Source: Ruditapes philippinarum (taxonomy: Eukaryota). Taken from it: a DNA stretch of 64,000 nucleotides. The stretch is from contig NW_026852831.1 of the NCBI RefSeq assembly GCF_026571515.1, positions 1 to 64,000 on the forward strand, in the 5' to 3' direction. A program made the position numbers. Every line of letters starts with the position of its first letter. Within the stretch, counting starts at the first letter, position 1. Of this stretch, positions 51,301 through 64,000 are shown piece by piece.

Positions 51301-54300
51301 TTAAAATATCCATAGATGTGTTCATTGGTAAGCAAAGGACCTTCAATGGGACACGGCAATGCCATTTGATGAAAATATGTGTATTTTCTTCAAGCAAAGA
51401 ATGTGTGTGAAAGAATGGGCGGAATTAAAAAGACATAATTAAGATATAATTTTTAGAGAGATTCAGATGTTACAAAATGTTATAGTGCAATCAGTGTATT
51501 GTTATGTTTTACGTAACAGAACTATTTATTCATTATAATGTCTTAACATCAGAATTTTTCTAATTCTTACTTTACTAAAGAGTGAATCATAATTTATGCC
51601 TAGATGTTTAATCTGCAATCAATAGCCAAAGTAAGACAAGCGTGGGAATCAAGACTAGCTCTACTCTCACGGTTAAGAATGATAATGTCTGTCATATTTT
51701 GTGGTTCGGATCGGAAAATTTGGACCCGAGGGACGGATATTCCGATCCTAACCGCAAACACATGTCAGATATTTTTGCTTACATATTTTACCACATTTAT
51801 CATATTTTAAATTCTTTATCTCAATAACACAAACTCCCATATATTTTCTTACAATAGCGTAGGAATTCATAACGGTGAACTGGTGTCATTCTAAGCATTC
51901 AGTTTCATTCTTATTTGATAATGTGATAATAGTTAAATTGTCTTGCTATTCATTAAGATAAATATATATATACACATTACAATATACATTATAGACAATT
52001 CATCACAGATTTATCTATCACATTATTTGTGACACAGTAATTAAATTTAAAAATATTAACTTTACATTTATAATTAAATGAAAGATCTAGTTGACTTCAA
52101 GACAATATATACAACACAGGATAACCCATGAAATTTCAACATTAAATAGAGAACTTATTTTCAATTGGGTCCTTTGATGGAACAAATATATTTTCTTGAG
52201 AACTTACATTCAAGTCCATGCTTAAAGATGATATACTGGACTTATGTTATATTTTTAAGATTAGATAATATCAATTCCTATTGCACATTATATTAACTAC
52301 ATTTATAACATATTACAGAAATAATTCTATGTATATGACTAGTTATCACACCAATGAAACATATCTATTTATATATATCACAAAACCAATCACAAGATAC
52401 ATTTATATAAAACATAGTATATTGATGAAAACGAAAAATAAAATCAGCTTTGTTATCACTTAGTTGTGCTTTGACTTTCTTTTTTAAGTAAGAAAAATCT
52501 TTTTTAATATCAAGTGAGAGCATATTCCAATCCCTTATACCTTGGTAAAAATGTCCTTTTTGTGTATGAAAGTTTCCTACACTGTTTCTACTATTACATT
52601 GTATTATAGTAATGAACATCACACTTTAAAGAAATGTTATCATACGTATAAGATGGACATTTTGTATCAAATATTTTAATATGTACATGACTGTGTCTAA
52701 ATTGCATGACTCTATTTTCTATATCAAGCCACCCAATACTACTAAAATCAATAACTTTCAATAATTTTAAAGAGGAATAACCATGACTATAACGAACAAC
52801 TTTGTTTTGTGCTACTTGAAGTTTATGATTAAGTTTCGTAAGACCACTATACAAAGATGAGCTGTCATAGTCAAAATGACACTGTATTAAAGAGTTATAT
52901 AAAAGTTTTCTTAGCTCCATATTCAAACTGTTGCCTTGACTATACAAAAATTTCAATCGAGAGTTTACTTTTTGTACTATATTATCAACAATAGAAGTGG
53001 CTAAGAGATCATAATCCAAAATTGAACCGAGATACTTTACTGATGGCTGAGATTGTATGGTGCGATTGTTACAGTGTTTTTTAAACTGCTCAAGTTTTGA
53101 CAATTTCCTCTTAGTTCAAATTAGTTTCATATATCGTATGTTAAATTGTTTAACTTCGTTTTTAAACCTAATCAGTCTCAGACTTGCATTTTATCACACT
53201 GCAACTTTAAATTTAAAGCCAGGAGGAAATTGTCCAGAAGAAGAAAATGTAGTAAATTTAAATACTTCACACGGCGATATATTGATGAAAAAAGTAGTTT
53301 ACAGAGCCCGAGTTCTTATTAATCGATCTTTGAACATAAACATTATATTATAACACGTGTATCTGAATCAGATATTCTCCTCGGTTATATTACCATAGAG
53401 TTAAAACAATGTTTAACTGAACTAATTTTTCAGAGTTGTAAATGTCATGAAATAATTGACACATGTTTTCACAAAAAAAAAACTTTTTCGACAGCAAAAA
53501 GGGAAAATTGCAATAAATAATTTCGAGACATTTTTCTCATTTTATCCTACATCTGATAAGCACCGCTGGACATCTTTGATCCTTTGGTAAGTATATTTGT
53601 CTCAATCAAAACTACTTAAAGTAGCATTGCATGAGATTAAAACATCCGAGCAAATTTACATTTCTTAGTCACCTTGCCTCTTTTCATTTAAATGTTCAAA
53701 TAAAACAGAAACTGTGAACAAGTATTTTACTGGTAACGGCAAATACCTTATTGGCAGAAAGTATCTATTTTTGTAACAATACATCCTAAAGGTCAACACA
53801 ATGTACAAAACAATTGGTTTGATATCATTTTCAATAAAGATATTTCTATGTAAATTCAGCAGTCTCAGTTCGCCCGATCGATTCCCATTTGCATACAAAA
53901 TTATGCCATTTATTTCAAGTAAGATAGTTTATTGATCATTGATTGTTGATTAAGTAACTTTTTTGGTCCTTAAAGATACTGTATGAACACATGTACAAAC
54001 TACTTAAATGTTGATAAAATCAACACACATTCCGTAGAATTTGACTATTGTACTCCCCCAGCGACAACGCCGGTGTCGGCAACGGCGTGGCCTTCAAACC
54101 TTGGTTAAGTATTTGCGTTTAATTTGCTATCCTATCTTCAATATTATAGTATTTTATTATATACATGCAACATGACTGACCGATAACTATGACTTACATT
54201 TTTACAGCCTTTTTTACTGTCATTTCCTGAGAATAATCGAGCGCGCTGCCTTACGGATAAATCTTTTTTCAATTTGATACCAAACGAGCTGTGAATAATG

Positions 54301-57300
54301 CTTTCTGAAATATTCTTTATAATATTATTATATATAATAAAATATTGACTGTTCTTGTCGTGTCTATAAAGGTTTTTAAACACTCAATTTCATATTTAGG
54401 AAAACAAGAATCTGTAAAACAAAAATATTTAAATCATACAATAATCGTTCTTGGCGCAAACATTATTGGTTATAATTATTATTTTACAATATTTCAAAAC
54501 AGAATTATGAACGAATACTTATTCCTAATCGCTATCTAAATGCATCTATCAATTAAACATTTATACAATGAGTCTGTTAATTGTCGGTTTTGAACGGAAT
54601 CTTCAAATATTATAATAAAACAAAAAACTGCAACAAAATCCTAATTATATTTCCCTCATATTCCGTAGAAATATATTACTCCAATATGTTTGTTTACAGA
54701 CAGGACGTCAAAGTAATGTATCTCCAGGACAATACATACTCTGGACAGGTCAATTGTACGTTTCTAAACTGATTACACGTATTGGTTTCTATTTCTGAAG
54801 CAATAGGTTATGTTTGCACAACGCAATGGTTCATCTAAGATCTATAGTATAACAATGCTATTGTAAACTGCCTGAAGGACATTTTGGGGAAAATTCATAT
54901 TCCAGAACACAAACATAAAGTGTTTGAACGCCGAGGATAGGAAGTAGGAATATTTCGGAAATGTTATAATGTACATGGTTAAGGTTATCTACAAATACAC
55001 TATCAAAGAAACAAACGCCCTCTTGCAACGTGGGTGGTATATGAACAACTGAATTTAGCATAAGCGTTAACAAAAAACATCTTTGATTAAACAGACAAAT
55101 TATGTTAACACCTATTTAGGTTGATTACAGCTAAAATTACTATCTTATCTTTCATGCGCAAATAAATATACAGCCAATTAGAAAAGATGTATTTGTTTAG
55201 AATTGATATAATCTTTTATTTGATATCGCATTCACCATGCCAATTCAAGTATCTGACACGTTTCCAGAGTCGTAATTAACAGTACAACTATTTCATTTGT
55301 CTTTGTAAACTGGGTAACAATCTGCAAAATGATCTAAATGTCATATGTTTTTATTATGTGACAATTAAAGTTTTAAACCCGGAAAATCTCTAGAAGTCAT
55401 TCCAATTAATTTAGATATATGGATTACTCAAAACATCTAAATTAAAGGAAATATAAATAAGACGTAGCTTAGTTTTCTATGGAATGAATAAACTATTGGT
55501 GTCAGCTTAACGTGGAGGTGTGAAGTTCTCTGACAAATATTGTTATTAACAACTATGTATTAAAATAACATTAAGTATTAACAAAAAATGACAACCTTAT
55601 CATGATACTGAACTTTAATCGGCTTTTTTAAATTACTAGGTTGAATGATTTTTGTTGTTCACAATTACATAAGTTTAGTTTTTGTTACTGCAGCGTTATT
55701 ATTTTCTATAAATTATATAGTATAATAGAAAATTACTTTTATAAAGCACTGTCGCACACTATTATGAAACAGTTTTACCATCTAAGACAGATAGATAGTA
55801 TGAACCGCTGGTGACTATCCATATGAATCAGTCTGAAAAGAGTTTTATGTAAATAATTTATTTGATGTGTGGAAAATGCAGGTTTAATGACGCACTCTAA
55901 TAATTGATTGGTTAGCTTTCTCAACACTACTTTTGCGGTTGTTTCTTGGTAATAAATCTGGTGCAATCTATAAATAACTTACGACATAATTTATAGTATT
56001 TTCTAAGTATAAAACGGTGTACGTTGCAATTAAAGAACATGCCCGGTAAATTGTTGGAACATGTATGTAAGATTAAAATTTGTAAAATAAAAGAATATAT
56101 AACTTAGTATATAAACTCGCATCAGCCAGTTGAATATTATAACAAGCATTAATAAAATAAACAGCAAACAAGGACATACATCATATTTTTGTAACTTGTT
56201 TTCATATCAGATTTGACCTTTTTGCCATTATAAATTCTTTATACATATTACGCAATACATCAACCATTTAAAACGGTCCAATGACCTGGAATAGAAAACC
56301 TTTTCTCAAAAGTGTCTGTGTACCTGCTGACGTTTCGTTCAATAGACAAAAAAAAATACAAATTATTGTTAACATTTACCTTTATCATATTATTGAACCG
56401 GGTGTGTCAAATACCGACGACAAATACGTTATACTAAATAAAGAAAAATTGAAATTTAATTACAGATTCTGCTTATATAACAGATAAATTTGTCGCTAGT
56501 ATTTTCTATTATAATACAAACATAACATACAAATGTTGCTTTTCTATGGCACGTGACGTTGTATCGTTAATGAAAGCACTTTTTCTGAAATATTCCTCAT
56601 TTGTCGACTTCAAATCCTTATTGATTCGCAAATTACTTGAAATAAGCTTCTCTTTATGTTTTGCATGCATATTTCGCCATGTAACGCATTTTAATTAAGA
56701 TTTATTAGATTTCGATTATGAATTCCGTTAGATTCTCCTGGAGTTTAATTTAAACTTTCAGTTGTAATAAAGTGCATCTTTGAGAATGATTGACTTATTA
56801 AGCTAAAAGTTGTATAATTGTTAACTTGGTCACATGGCAAGTTTTAAATTGTAAACTCTTACAGATCTTTTATAGATAGAACAGGTTTTAAAGAAGCATC
56901 GATCACACTTCTCATCTAATAAATAACCCGAAAAGAGATTTAGAAATTAAAATAAAATCTTATAAAAAAGCTATGCAAAGCAACATTAAAAATTTTATCT
57001 CTACTTTTAACTTAAGCAGAATAAACTAGAATAACCCCTTATAATCCCTTATTCTAAATTGGCTCACCTACAGGATATTAAGCACCATGTAATTATAAGT
57101 TAATTATTCGCTTACTAACCATCTAGCAGCCAGATACAGAGGATTATTAATTTTTCAGAATGTTTTGAAGCGGTTATATCAAAGCGGTTATATTCATTTT
57201 TCATATGAAAACAGTGCTTTTACATTTGTTAACATAAAATTTACATTAATCATATTAACAAGCATCTAGTAATAAATGTACTTTATTTTCCGCATGCATG

Positions 57301-63300: not shown

Positions 63301-64000
63301 ATCTGGTATCATATTTGCTATTAAATTTGGCATTATTTAGTAAATAAATACCTACAATAATTATATAATTAAAATAAAACACTTTTTTCTTCCATAGGGG
63401 GTCTGAGAGATTAATAAAAAATGTTAAAAAGAAAAAAAAGAAAGAAAAAAAATTGCCCCTTCTGGGGTTTGAACCCACGCCCCCTCAGTTTCAATACACT
63501 TTACAGTGATTTTAGCCTATTTGAATACTCTTCAAAGTGGAGACAGTGCATTAGGGGTGTACTACCTTAATAGCATACATGTATAAAGGAGAGCAAATCT
63601 TATTATTTCTTCTTGTTTCACAGTAATGAAAGGAAACGCAGTAATAATTGATCACATTGGTATAATGTTTTACATTGTTAATCAGACGAAACACATTACA
63701 TGACTGGAACATTTAAACACTTGCCGACAGACTTTTTTCAGGACGCCTGGTCCAAAAGCTAATGGGATGTTTTCTTGATATTGGCAATCATCGACAGATG
63801 TTATCGATCATGTAGACAAGTATACAAAACATGTAATGTAAGCAAATACCAAAGTTCACAGCGATAACAGCTTCGTTTGAAGGAAACATTAAACCATTTT
63901 CTATAGCAAGCGGAAATTATTTCCTTTCAGGCAAAATCCGATAGCCTTTATATTGTTTAATATACAATTTTAATTTATTGACATTAATGGGTTATTTTCT

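What the first reader, a model, noticed from the sequence alone, without database searches (positions are those of the whole stretch)
54181..64000. A diverged 10-kb copy of intron 1 lies downstream: likely a tandem paralog with no visible first exon
Seen in sequence: 54181-64000 is colinear and co-oriented with 5399-15558 (about 80-90% by eye), with independent TE insertions in each copy, and homology continues past the window end. I find no counterpart of the signal-peptide exon in 47-54 kb, where a LINE and other relics sit. Inference: a second ALK-like gene body may follow, with its exon 2 roughly 8 kb beyond the window, making a tandem array. It could be a headless pseudogene, use a new first exon, or (speculatively) be reached by splicing from the upstream exon 1.
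[Added by the scan's program, not by the reader: the finding's places include an assembly gap (unread letters, written N; its length is only estimated) at 60487 to 60627. Whether the letters on both sides are continuous or in frame is not known: test that first.]
Basis: partly seen in the sequence, partly recalled or inferred. Interest (0 to 1): 0.68.

Follow-up and report, generated by a model that had tools for sequence, protein, structure and literature searches.

The report
Headless partial tandem copy, clam kinase gene
Downstream of a Manila-clam ALK-like receptor kinase gene lies an old, diverged second copy of part of the gene's first intron, most simply explained by a tandem duplication that started inside that intron and so never included the first exon; this is an ordinary kind of genome event.

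Summary
Window 5398-15558 and 54180-64000 are colinear and co-oriented: 9 chained blocks, 7,421 aligned columns, 85.0% identity, K2P 0.167, about 78% of each copy alignable. The window is Ruditapes philippinarum, not human. A 26-exon receptor tyrosine kinase gene (2907-43799, +) matches the public protein P0001. Copy 1 lies wholly inside intron 1 (3094-23269). The homology edge is sharp, and nothing from 1-5397 recurs in 43.8-54.18 kb at DNA or protein level. The N gap lies in a copy-2-only repeat block whose flanks are colinear with copy 1. Best reading: a 48.8-kb tandem duplication with its proximal breakpoint in intron 1, so copy 2 was born without promoter and exon 1 and is probably a pseudogene. 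Whether exons 2-26 follow cannot be tested, because exon 2' would lie about 7.7 kb past the window end and no eukaryotic DNA collection was available. Two single-exon protein searches found no second clam cluster, which is weak evidence. A haplotype misjoin and a single large transposon are both unlikely. The finding is ordinary and of low interest.

The parts
2907..3093 (+). Coding part of exon 1 (start codon, signal peptide, 62 codons plus 1 base). It occurs once in the window.
   Evidence: tblastn of P0001. The donor ACAG|GTAGG was read directly.
3094..23269 (+). Intron 1: 20,176 bp, phase 1.
5398..15558 (+). Copy 1 of the duplicated block, wholly inside intron 1.
23270..23462 (+). Exon 2, the first exon that a 5'-truncated second copy would keep. 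Its counterpart is expected about 7.7 kb past the window end.
   Evidence: The 7.7 kb is arithmetic from the copy-1 spacing.
28298..43799 (+). Exons 3-26: LDLa-MAM, LDLa-MAM, TM, juxtamembrane, ALK-type tyrosine kinase and tail. The stop codon TGA is at 43797-43799.
43800..54179 (.). 3' flank and spacer (10,380 bp), which would be the distal part of the proposed 48.8-kb unit. It has no exon relics, only short dispersed repeats.
52434..53115 (-). 5'-truncated LINE relic covering the last ~240 residues of ORF2. It ends 1.06 kb short of the junction.
54179..54180 (.). Duplication junction, where homology to 5398 onward begins. It lies in uninterrupted sequence.
54180..64000 (+). Copy 2 of the duplicated block. 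It is cut off by the window end.
60358..60486 (.). 26-bp minisatellite (4.9 copies) that runs into the assembly gap.
60487..60627 (.). Assembly gap (141 N) inside the copy-2-only block 60402-61273. The flanks of that block are colinear with copy 1.
62758..63569 (.). 812-bp element present only in copy 2, with a perfect 25-bp terminal inverted repeat. It is a non-autonomous DNA transposon inserted after the duplication.
58322..58689 (.). 368-bp element present only in copy 2, with imperfect inverted termini of about 56 bp.
9929..11042 (.). 1,114-bp block present only in copy 1. It includes a 181-bp tandem repeat (2.3 copies, 10488-10896).
4970..5230 (+). Dispersed repeat just upstream of the breakpoint, related in inverse orientation to ~15280-15440 and ~63630-63850. 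It is not part of the duplicated unit.

Best explanation
A segment of the Manila-clam genome was duplicated in tandem. It began 2.3 kb inside intron 1 of an ALK-like receptor tyrosine kinase gene and ended about 10.4 kb downstream of the stop codon, giving a unit of 48,782 bp (window 5398-54179). The window shows all of unit 1 and the first 9.8 kb of unit 2.

Because the proximal breakpoint lay inside intron 1, unit 2 was created without the promoter, the start codon or the signal-peptide exon. Nothing was lost afterwards. The event is old: K2P is 0.167, and each copy has since gained its own transposon insertions and tandem-repeat expansions.

If unit 2 is complete, it carries exons 2-26 as a 5'-truncated gene copy. 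With no 5' end of its own, that copy is most likely a non-functional pseudogene.

Shown: the duplication, its sharp left edge, its position inside intron 1, the absence of exon 1 from the spacer, divergence well above allelic levels, and colinearity across the gap.

Inferred: that homology runs on through the gene body, and the fate of the copy.
For: Co-oriented colinear homology over the whole visible 9.8 kb, still at 92.2% identity in the last 428 columns at the window end.

The left edge is sharp at 5398/54180. The sequence to the left is unique in both places: the local alignment scores of the upstream flanks were reached by 15, 126 and 7 of 200 shuffles, and blastn found only chance-level hits.

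Copy 1 is wholly inside intron 1.

The junction lies in sequence without any N.

0 of 128 ORFs of >=50 aa in both copies and the spacer hit a transposon protein domain in Pfam. tblastn with four LINE ORF2 proteins found only the one relic in the spacer. So the block is not an autonomous element.

Post-duplication insertions with inverted termini occur in copy 2 only.

Precedent for local second copies of this gene in other bivalves: Mya arenaria P0004 vs P0005, 75-89% identical, on the same 71-Mb contig; Dreissena polymorpha P0008, an N-terminally truncated 323-aa relative, 85% identical to P0006, on the same 152-Mb contig.

The lack of a second R. philippinarum protein cluster in two single-exon searches fits an unannotated pseudogene.
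Against: Nothing beyond base 64000 could be seen, so no exon of a second copy has been observed. Any direct repeat can formally be read as the start of a tandem unit.

The two exon searches found only P0001 for this species: 8 hits among 26 candidates and 1 hit among 42 candidates. So no independent protein record supports a second gene. This is weak either way. A paralog more than 90% identical would be hidden in P0001's cluster of 3 members, which I could not open, and a pseudogene would have no protein record.

No repeat shared by the two breakpoints was found, so the mechanism of duplication is not identified.

Read depth and spanning reads were not available.
Confidence: 0.55

Rival explanations
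1. Only non-coding DNA was copied. In this reading a segment of roughly 10-18 kb of intron 1 was duplicated to a site 10 kb downstream of the gene, or downstream DNA was copied into intron 1. Homology would then end before exon 2', and there would be no second gene body and no paralog.
For: Everything actually seen is intronic or non-coding, with no coding relic in 44.5-64 kb. Two single-exon searches found no second clam protein cluster. Intron 1 (20.2 kb) is much the longest intron of the gene, as it would be if it had received an insertion.
Against: Homology shows no decay at the window end, with 92.2% identity in the last block. A direct, same-strand, nearby arrangement is what a simple tandem duplication gives. 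From general knowledge, recalled and not tested here, tandem duplication is the commonest class of duplication in animal genomes. Long first introns are also usual. No insertion signature was seen at the left edge of either copy.
Confidence: 0.28
2. A complete, functional tandem paralog follows. It is expressed either from a new first exon in the spacer or in copy 2, or by read-through transcription and splicing of the single upstream exon 1 to exon 2' (one shared signal-peptide exon, two alternative gene bodies).
For: The same structural evidence as for the best explanation. The exon 1 donor and the exon 2 acceptor are both phase 1, so exon 1 to exon 2' splicing would stay in frame if the acceptor is conserved. 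P0001 is called 'isoform X2', so at least one other isoform exists that I could not see. A paralog more than 90% identical would be hidden inside P0001's cluster.
Against: No + strand reading frame of >=40 codons is kept open at homologous positions in both copies (0 on +, 2 on -). No exon-1-like sequence lies in 44.5-64 kb. Splicing from exon 1 would require transcription through the polyadenylation site of gene 1 and skipping of 25 exons over about 69 kb. No transcript data were available.
Confidence: 0.12
3. Assembly artefact: two haplotypes, or two distant loci, were joined so that one locus appears twice.
For: Manila-clam assemblies are known to suffer from high heterozygosity. One early assembly was 2.56 Gb against an estimated 1.37 Gb (PMC5499747, passages read). 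The window contains an assembly gap inside copy 2.
Against: There is 15% mismatch at aligned sites, 167 gap openings and about 22% unalignable sequence, against 3.7-4% k-mer heterozygosity (PMC9803972, passages read). The junction 54179/54180 is in uninterrupted sequence, 6.3 kb from the only gap. A haplotype copy would be expected to include exon 1 and its flank, and neither is present.
Confidence: 0.04
4. The block is one large transposable element, or a fixed composite of elements, that happens to sit both in intron 1 and downstream of the gene.
For: The region is repeat-rich. A dispersed repeat family has three copies in the window, and several short repeats are shared between the spacer and the introns.
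Against: 0 of 128 ORFs of >=50 aa carry a transposon domain. The LINE ORF2 relatives map only to 52434-53115. The window holds no third copy of the block. The inverted repeat near 5.0-5.2 kb lies outside the copied block, and homology continues at least 115 bp past its partner at ~15.3-15.4 kb. Genome-wide copy number could not be checked.
Confidence: 0.03

Closest known systems
Partial (5'-truncated) tandem gene duplicates, as catalogued in surveys of young duplicates in nematodes, flies and humans (recalled from general knowledge; no paper read here)
   Same: A direct, adjacent duplication whose breakpoint falls inside the gene, so that one copy lacks its promoter and first exon. Such copies usually decay, and sometimes recruit a new 5' end.
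   Different: Here only the first 9.8 kb of the second unit is visible, so it is not shown that the copy is a gene copy at all. The event is old (K2P 0.167), not young.
Second ALK-like copies on the same chromosome in other bivalves: Mya arenaria P0004/P0005 and Dreissena polymorpha P0006/P0008
   Same: The same gene family, a second copy on the same chromosome-scale contig, 75-89% protein identity. In Dreissena the copy is N-terminally truncated: 323 aa, starting in the juxtamembrane region.
   Different: The distance and orientation of those pairs are unknown to me. They are annotated proteins, whereas no protein record for a second clam copy was found. They may be independent events.
Vertebrate and insect ALK/LTK receptor tyrosine kinases
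   Same: The kinase exons are closest to ALK among solved structures, with the top 27 rows being ALK in each of two exon searches. MAM and LDLa modules are present in the ectodomain.
   Different: The ectodomain is (N-terminal region)-LDLa-MAM-LDLa-MAM with only about 50 residues between the second MAM and the membrane. There is no room for the glycine-rich/TNF-like ligand-binding module and EGF-like module that define ALK/LTK. The precomputed Pfam list for P0001 holds only PF07714, PF00069, PF00629 and PF00057.
Gene clusters with shared exons (UGT1A, clustered protocadherins; recalled)
   Same: This is relevant only to the boldest reading: several products made by splicing between one shared part and alternative parts arranged in tandem.
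   Different: In those clusters the first exons vary and the downstream exons are shared. Here a single first exon would be shared by two whole alternative gene bodies. There is no evidence for this here.

Membership tests
Tandem segmental duplication | Two copies that are colinear and in the same orientation. | tested here: met
   9 chained blocks on the same strand in the same order.
Tandem segmental duplication | The copies lie on one uninterrupted stretch of sequence, with the junction not at an assembly gap. | tested here: met
   The only N run is 60487-60627. The junction is at 54179/54180.
Tandem segmental duplication | Homology extends over the whole unit (5398-54179), that is through exons 2-26 and the 3' flank. 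| not testable with these tools
Tandem segmental duplication | Divergence well above allelic variation. | tested here: met
   85.0% identity, 167 gap openings and ~22% unalignable sequence, against 3.7-4% heterozygosity (PMC9803972, passages read).
Tandem segmental duplication | Normal read depth and spanning long reads. | not testable with these tools
   No read data were available.
ALK/LTK receptor tyrosine kinase family | A tyrosine kinase domain closest to ALK/LTK. | tested here: met
   Exons 40671-40844 and 42130-42264 each have ALK as the top 27 rows, followed by ROS1. Pfam PF07714 is found on three kinase exons.
ALK/LTK receptor tyrosine kinase family | MAM and LDLa modules in the ectodomain (ALK). 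| tested here: met
   PF00057 on 2 exons. PF00629 on 3 exons, one of them just under the gathering score.
ALK/LTK receptor tyrosine kinase family | A glycine-rich/TNF-like ligand-binding module and a membrane-proximal EGF-like module. That these modules define the family is recalled. | tested here: not met
   Only about 50 residues lie between the second MAM and the TM segment. The precomputed Pfam list of P0001 has no such family. Not every exon was scanned separately (10 ORFs).
Autonomous transposable element | Coding relics of reverse transcriptase, integrase or transposase inside the block. | tested here: not met
   0 of 128 ORFs of >=50 aa. LINE ORF2 relatives map only to 52434-53115.
Autonomous transposable element | Defined termini (LTR or TIR) bounding the block. 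| tested here: inconclusive
   No terminal structure at the left edge. The right end lies outside the window.
Processed (retro-)pseudogene | Intronless copy with a poly(A) tail. | tested here: not met
   The copied sequence is itself intron sequence.

The most novel reading that the evidence does not exclude
Unit 2 is a complete and intact gene body with no promoter of its own. It is expressed by read-through transcription from gene 1, with the single signal-peptide exon (donor at 3093/3094, phase 1) spliced over about 69 kb to exon 2'. One promoter and one first exon would then serve two alternative whole receptor bodies. That is the mirror image of the variable-first-exon clusters.
Probability: 0.04. 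Interest if true: 0.6.

Novelty: new member of a known kind. Interest (0 to 1): 0.2.

Why it matters
If the second unit is complete, the locus is a clean, datable example of how a tandem duplication with an intronic breakpoint creates a receptor-kinase copy without a 5' end. It would show whether such a copy decays, gains a new first exon or borrows the upstream one.

It also adds to signs that this ALK-like gene duplicates locally in bivalves. Mya and Dreissena carry second copies, and the gene itself has an internal LDLa-MAM cassette duplication.

For annotation it is a caution. Gene models at this locus could wrongly fuse or truncate the two units. Beyond that it is an ordinary feature of a repeat-rich, duplication-prone genome.

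Tried and rejected
1. Hidden homology upstream of the breakpoint. A resemblance seen by eye near 4958 and 54040 did not beat shuffles: 15, 126 and 7 of 200 shuffles reached the observed scores for three flank pairs. 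blastn gave nothing colinear. Rejected.

2. Unequal crossing-over between two copies of one repeat at the breakpoints. No repeat is shared by the two left flanks. The dispersed repeat at 4970-5230 has its relatives inside the block in inverse orientation, not at the junction. Not supported.

3. An A-tailed retroposon at 5231-5397 masking the true edge. An A-rich tract does abut 5398, but no homology resumes further upstream. A 'CGATAAC' match near 5043 is part of the dispersed repeat consensus. Not pursued further.

4. The LINE as the cause of the breakpoint. The relic covers only the last ~240 residues of ORF2 (53115->52434, - strand) and ends 1.06 kb from the junction. Rejected.

5. P0002 as the product of copy 2. 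This unnamed record is 82% identical in the juxtamembrane exon but only 64.9% identical to P0001 overall, and it has its own exon-1-like N-terminus. That is too diverged for a copy whose introns are 85% identical. It is an orthologue from another species or an older paralog. I did not trace its origin.

6. An alternative first exon inside the duplicated block. There are 0 + strand frames of >=40 codons open in both copies, and 2 on the - strand, one of them inside the dispersed repeat. Short or non-coding first exons would be missed.

7. Opening P0001's 90% cluster to look for a hidden paralog or isoform X1.

8. The ESM Atlas for the LINE ORF was unavailable. The question was answered instead.

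9. Rfam and tRNA scans of the window found nothing.

10. Literature. 'anaplastic lymphoma kinase' + 'bivalve' gave 5 papers, none about this gene judging by the listing. 'Ruditapes philippinarum' + 'tandem duplication' + 'genome' gave 44 papers, 12 listed, none on this locus judging by the listing. Annotation tables there might list a neighbouring paralog.

Searches used single exons, so the sensitivity of a full-length query for a paralog was forgone.

Full report
**What the window is.** The window is 64,000 bases with 30.1% G+C and one run of 141 N at 60487-60627. The juxtamembrane exon and exon 2 of the + strand gene each match one public protein at 100%. That protein is P0001, 1,129 aa, named by NCBI 'MAM and LDL-receptor class A domain-containing protein 1-like isoform X2 [Ruditapes philippinarum]', on a record of 219,828 nt. 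The window is therefore Manila clam and not human.

tblastn of P0001 against the window gives 26 coding segments from 2907 to 43796, followed by TGA. Pfam scans of single exons show LDLa, MAM, LDLa, MAM and a tyrosine kinase. Two kinase exons searched separately against solved structures each have ALK as the top 27 rows, then ROS1. Only about 50 residues separate the second MAM from the membrane segment. The precomputed Pfam list of P0001 holds only four families. So the ALK/LTK glycine-rich and EGF-like modules are absent. 'ALK-like' is right for the kinase, but the gene is not a canonical ALK.

All such searches were made exon by exon. P0001 was used only locally.

**The assembly gap, tested first.** A 26-bp minisatellite (4.9 copies, 60358-60486) runs straight into the N run. 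The gap lies inside an 872-bp stretch (60402-61273) that has no counterpart in copy 1. The sequence on either side of that stretch aligns to copy-1 positions 13665 and 13642. Order and orientation across the gap therefore agree with copy 1. The single-copy sequence at 13642-13665 looks like the seed of the minisatellite. No reading frame is involved. The gap's true length and content are unknown, and I neither filled it nor looked it up.

**The observation.** Self-blastn gave 20 non-self HSPs at E<=1e-10. Ten of them form one same-strand colinear series, 5456-15555 <-> 54227-63997. A more sensitive run put the left edge at 5397/54179 and the last aligned base at 63997. Chained, there are 9 blocks with 7,421 ungapped columns, 85.04% identity, 427 transitions, 683 transversions, 167 gap openings and K2P 0.167. 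About 78% of each copy is alignable.

Exon 1 ends at 3093 (donor GT at 3094-3095) and exon 2 starts at 23270 (acceptor AG at 23268-23269). Intron 1 is phase 1. Copy 1 is therefore wholly inside the 20,176-bp intron 1 and starts 2,304 bp into it.

**Copy-specific sequence.**
- Copy 2 alone has an 812-bp element (62758-63569) with a perfect 25-bp terminal inverted repeat. Copy 1 has a short empty site containing TTAA at the matching place.
- Copy 2 alone also has a 368-bp element (58322-58689) with imperfect inverted termini of about 56 bp.
- Copy 1 alone has blocks at 7302-7604, 9929-11042 (with a 181-bp tandem repeat) and 12189-12733. None of these has inverted termini, so they may be insertions there or deletions in copy 2.

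'Independent TE insertions' is thus shown for two blocks of copy 2.

**The spacer and the missing first exon.** tblastn with the N-termini of three relatives (P0001-P0003, word size 2, E<=10) found only chance-level hits in 44.5-64 kb, at E 1.6-8.2. blastn of 1-5396 against 43800-54178 gave only short non-colinear hits, with best E 4.5e-4 and the rest 0.024-0.46. A resemblance I saw by eye just upstream of the two edges did not beat shuffles: 15, 126 and 7 of 200 shuffles reached the observed scores.

The ORF 52597-53115(-) matched 121 proteins among 519 candidates. Of the 120 listed, 117 carry the reverse-transcriptase family PF00078 and 19 (my count) also carry the endonuclease family PF03372. 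Four of these proteins map only to 53115->52434, which is the last ~240 residues of ORF2. The relic is a 5'-truncated LINE that ends 1.06 kb from the junction, so it does not explain the breakpoint.

**What it is.** The block is not an autonomous transposon. 0 of 128 ORFs of >=50 aa from both copies and the spacer hit a transposon domain; there were four weak single hits, about what chance gives. The window holds no third copy.

It is unlikely to be a haplotype misjoin. Divergence is about four times the published k-mer heterozygosity of 3.7-4% (PMC9803972, passages read). The junction lies in uninterrupted sequence, and exon 1 with its flank is not repeated. PMC5499747 (passages read) does show that early assemblies of this species kept uncollapsed haplotypes, so I leave a small probability for an artefact.

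The simplest account of a sharp edge inside intron 1, with unique sequence to its left at both places, is a tandem duplication of the unit 5398-54179 (48,782 bp). Its proximal breakpoint fell in intron 1, and its distal breakpoint fell 10,380 bp past the stop codon. Under that model the second unit never had a promoter or exon 1. If spacing is kept, exon 2' would lie about 7.7 kb past the window end.

**What cannot be said.** No eukaryotic DNA collection was available, so I could not see beyond base 64000. Single-exon protein searches found no second R. philippinarum cluster: the juxtamembrane exon gave 8 hits among 26 candidates, and exon 2 gave 1 hit among 42 candidates. This is weak evidence. 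A pseudogene has no protein record.

P0002, an unnamed record, is only 64.9% identical to P0001 overall and has its own N-terminal exon. It is not the product of copy 2.

No + strand frame of >=40 codons is kept open in both copies. So there is no sign of an alternative coding first exon inside the block, though short or non-coding exons would be missed.

**Context.** The first search also returned two distinct ALK-like proteins on the same chromosome-scale contig in each of two other species.
- In Mya arenaria, P0004 and P0005 are 75-89% identical.
- In Dreissena polymorpha, P0006 and P0008 are 85% identical, and P0008 is an N-terminally truncated protein of 323 aa.

The clam gene also carries an old internal duplication of a six-exon LDLa-MAM cassette. 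Local duplication at this locus is therefore recurrent.

**Verdict.** It is a real, old, direct duplication of intron-1 sequence, best read as the start of a 5'-truncated tandem copy that was headless from birth and is probably a pseudogene (confidence about 0.55).

The main rival is a copy of non-coding DNA only (about 0.28). A functional paralog with a new or shared first exon remains possible (about 0.12 in all). The shared-exon version is the most novel reading (about 0.04).

This is a new instance of a well-known kind of event, and its interest is low. Two literature searches found nothing on this locus judging by their listings. Supplementary files, which might list neighbouring gene models, were closed.

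Noticed in passing
window 28757-32452 and 32913-35323 (+): The gene contains an old internal tandem duplication of a six-exon cassette (LDLa, four MAM exons, linker). The exons of one cassette cross-hit the other at 34-60% amino-acid identity with the same exon layout. Mactra P0003, Mya P0005 and Dreissena P0006 are 250-350 residues shorter, and P0001's N-terminal and C-terminal halves align to overlapping parts of them. That is as expected if they carry a single cassette.
   Followed up: partly
window 62758-63569: An 812-bp element with a perfect 25-bp terminal inverted repeat is present in copy 2 only. The matching empty site in copy 1 (~15122-15131) contains TTAA, which suggests a piggyBac-like non-autonomous element. 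The family assignment is recalled, not tested. The perfect termini suggest an insertion much younger than the duplication.
   Followed up: partly
window 12734-13665 / 59505-60401 and 15132-15555 / 63570-63997: Identity between the copies is uneven. It is 79.7-85.6% in most blocks, 88.5% in one block and 92.2% in the last block. This could reflect gene conversion or a conserved intronic element. The 92% block overlaps the dispersed repeat.
   Followed up: no
window 5398-15558 vs 54180-64000: Transversions (683) outnumber transitions (427) between the two copies. The ratio is close to the unbiased expectation, which is unusual for animal neutral sequence. It may reflect the 70% A+T composition.
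   Followed up: no
window 4970-5230 (+), ~15280-15440 (-), ~63630-63850 (-): A dispersed repeat family of about 250 bp has three copies in the window. The copy inside the duplicated block predates the duplication, because it is present in both copies.
   Followed up: partly
window 17474-17602 / 50341-50472; 43250-43451 / 51210-51408; 20600-20745 / 53842-53987: Three further short repeats (130-200 bp, 70-77% identity) are shared between the spacer and the gene's introns or 3' region. Two are inverted and one is direct. They are probably SINE- or MITE-like elements.
   Followed up: no
window 6191-6349 (-) / 54960-55115 (-): This is the longest frame kept open at homologous positions in both copies: 53 codons on the minus strand at 84% nucleotide identity. 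The overlapping ORFs had no Pfam match at E<=0.01. It is probably chance.
   Followed up: partly
proteins P0006 and P0008 (Dreissena polymorpha); P0004 and P0005 (Mya arenaria): Other bivalves carry a second, partly truncated ALK-like protein on the same chromosome-scale contig. P0008 starts in the juxtamembrane region and appears to lack the glycine-loop exon of the kinase.
   Followed up: partly
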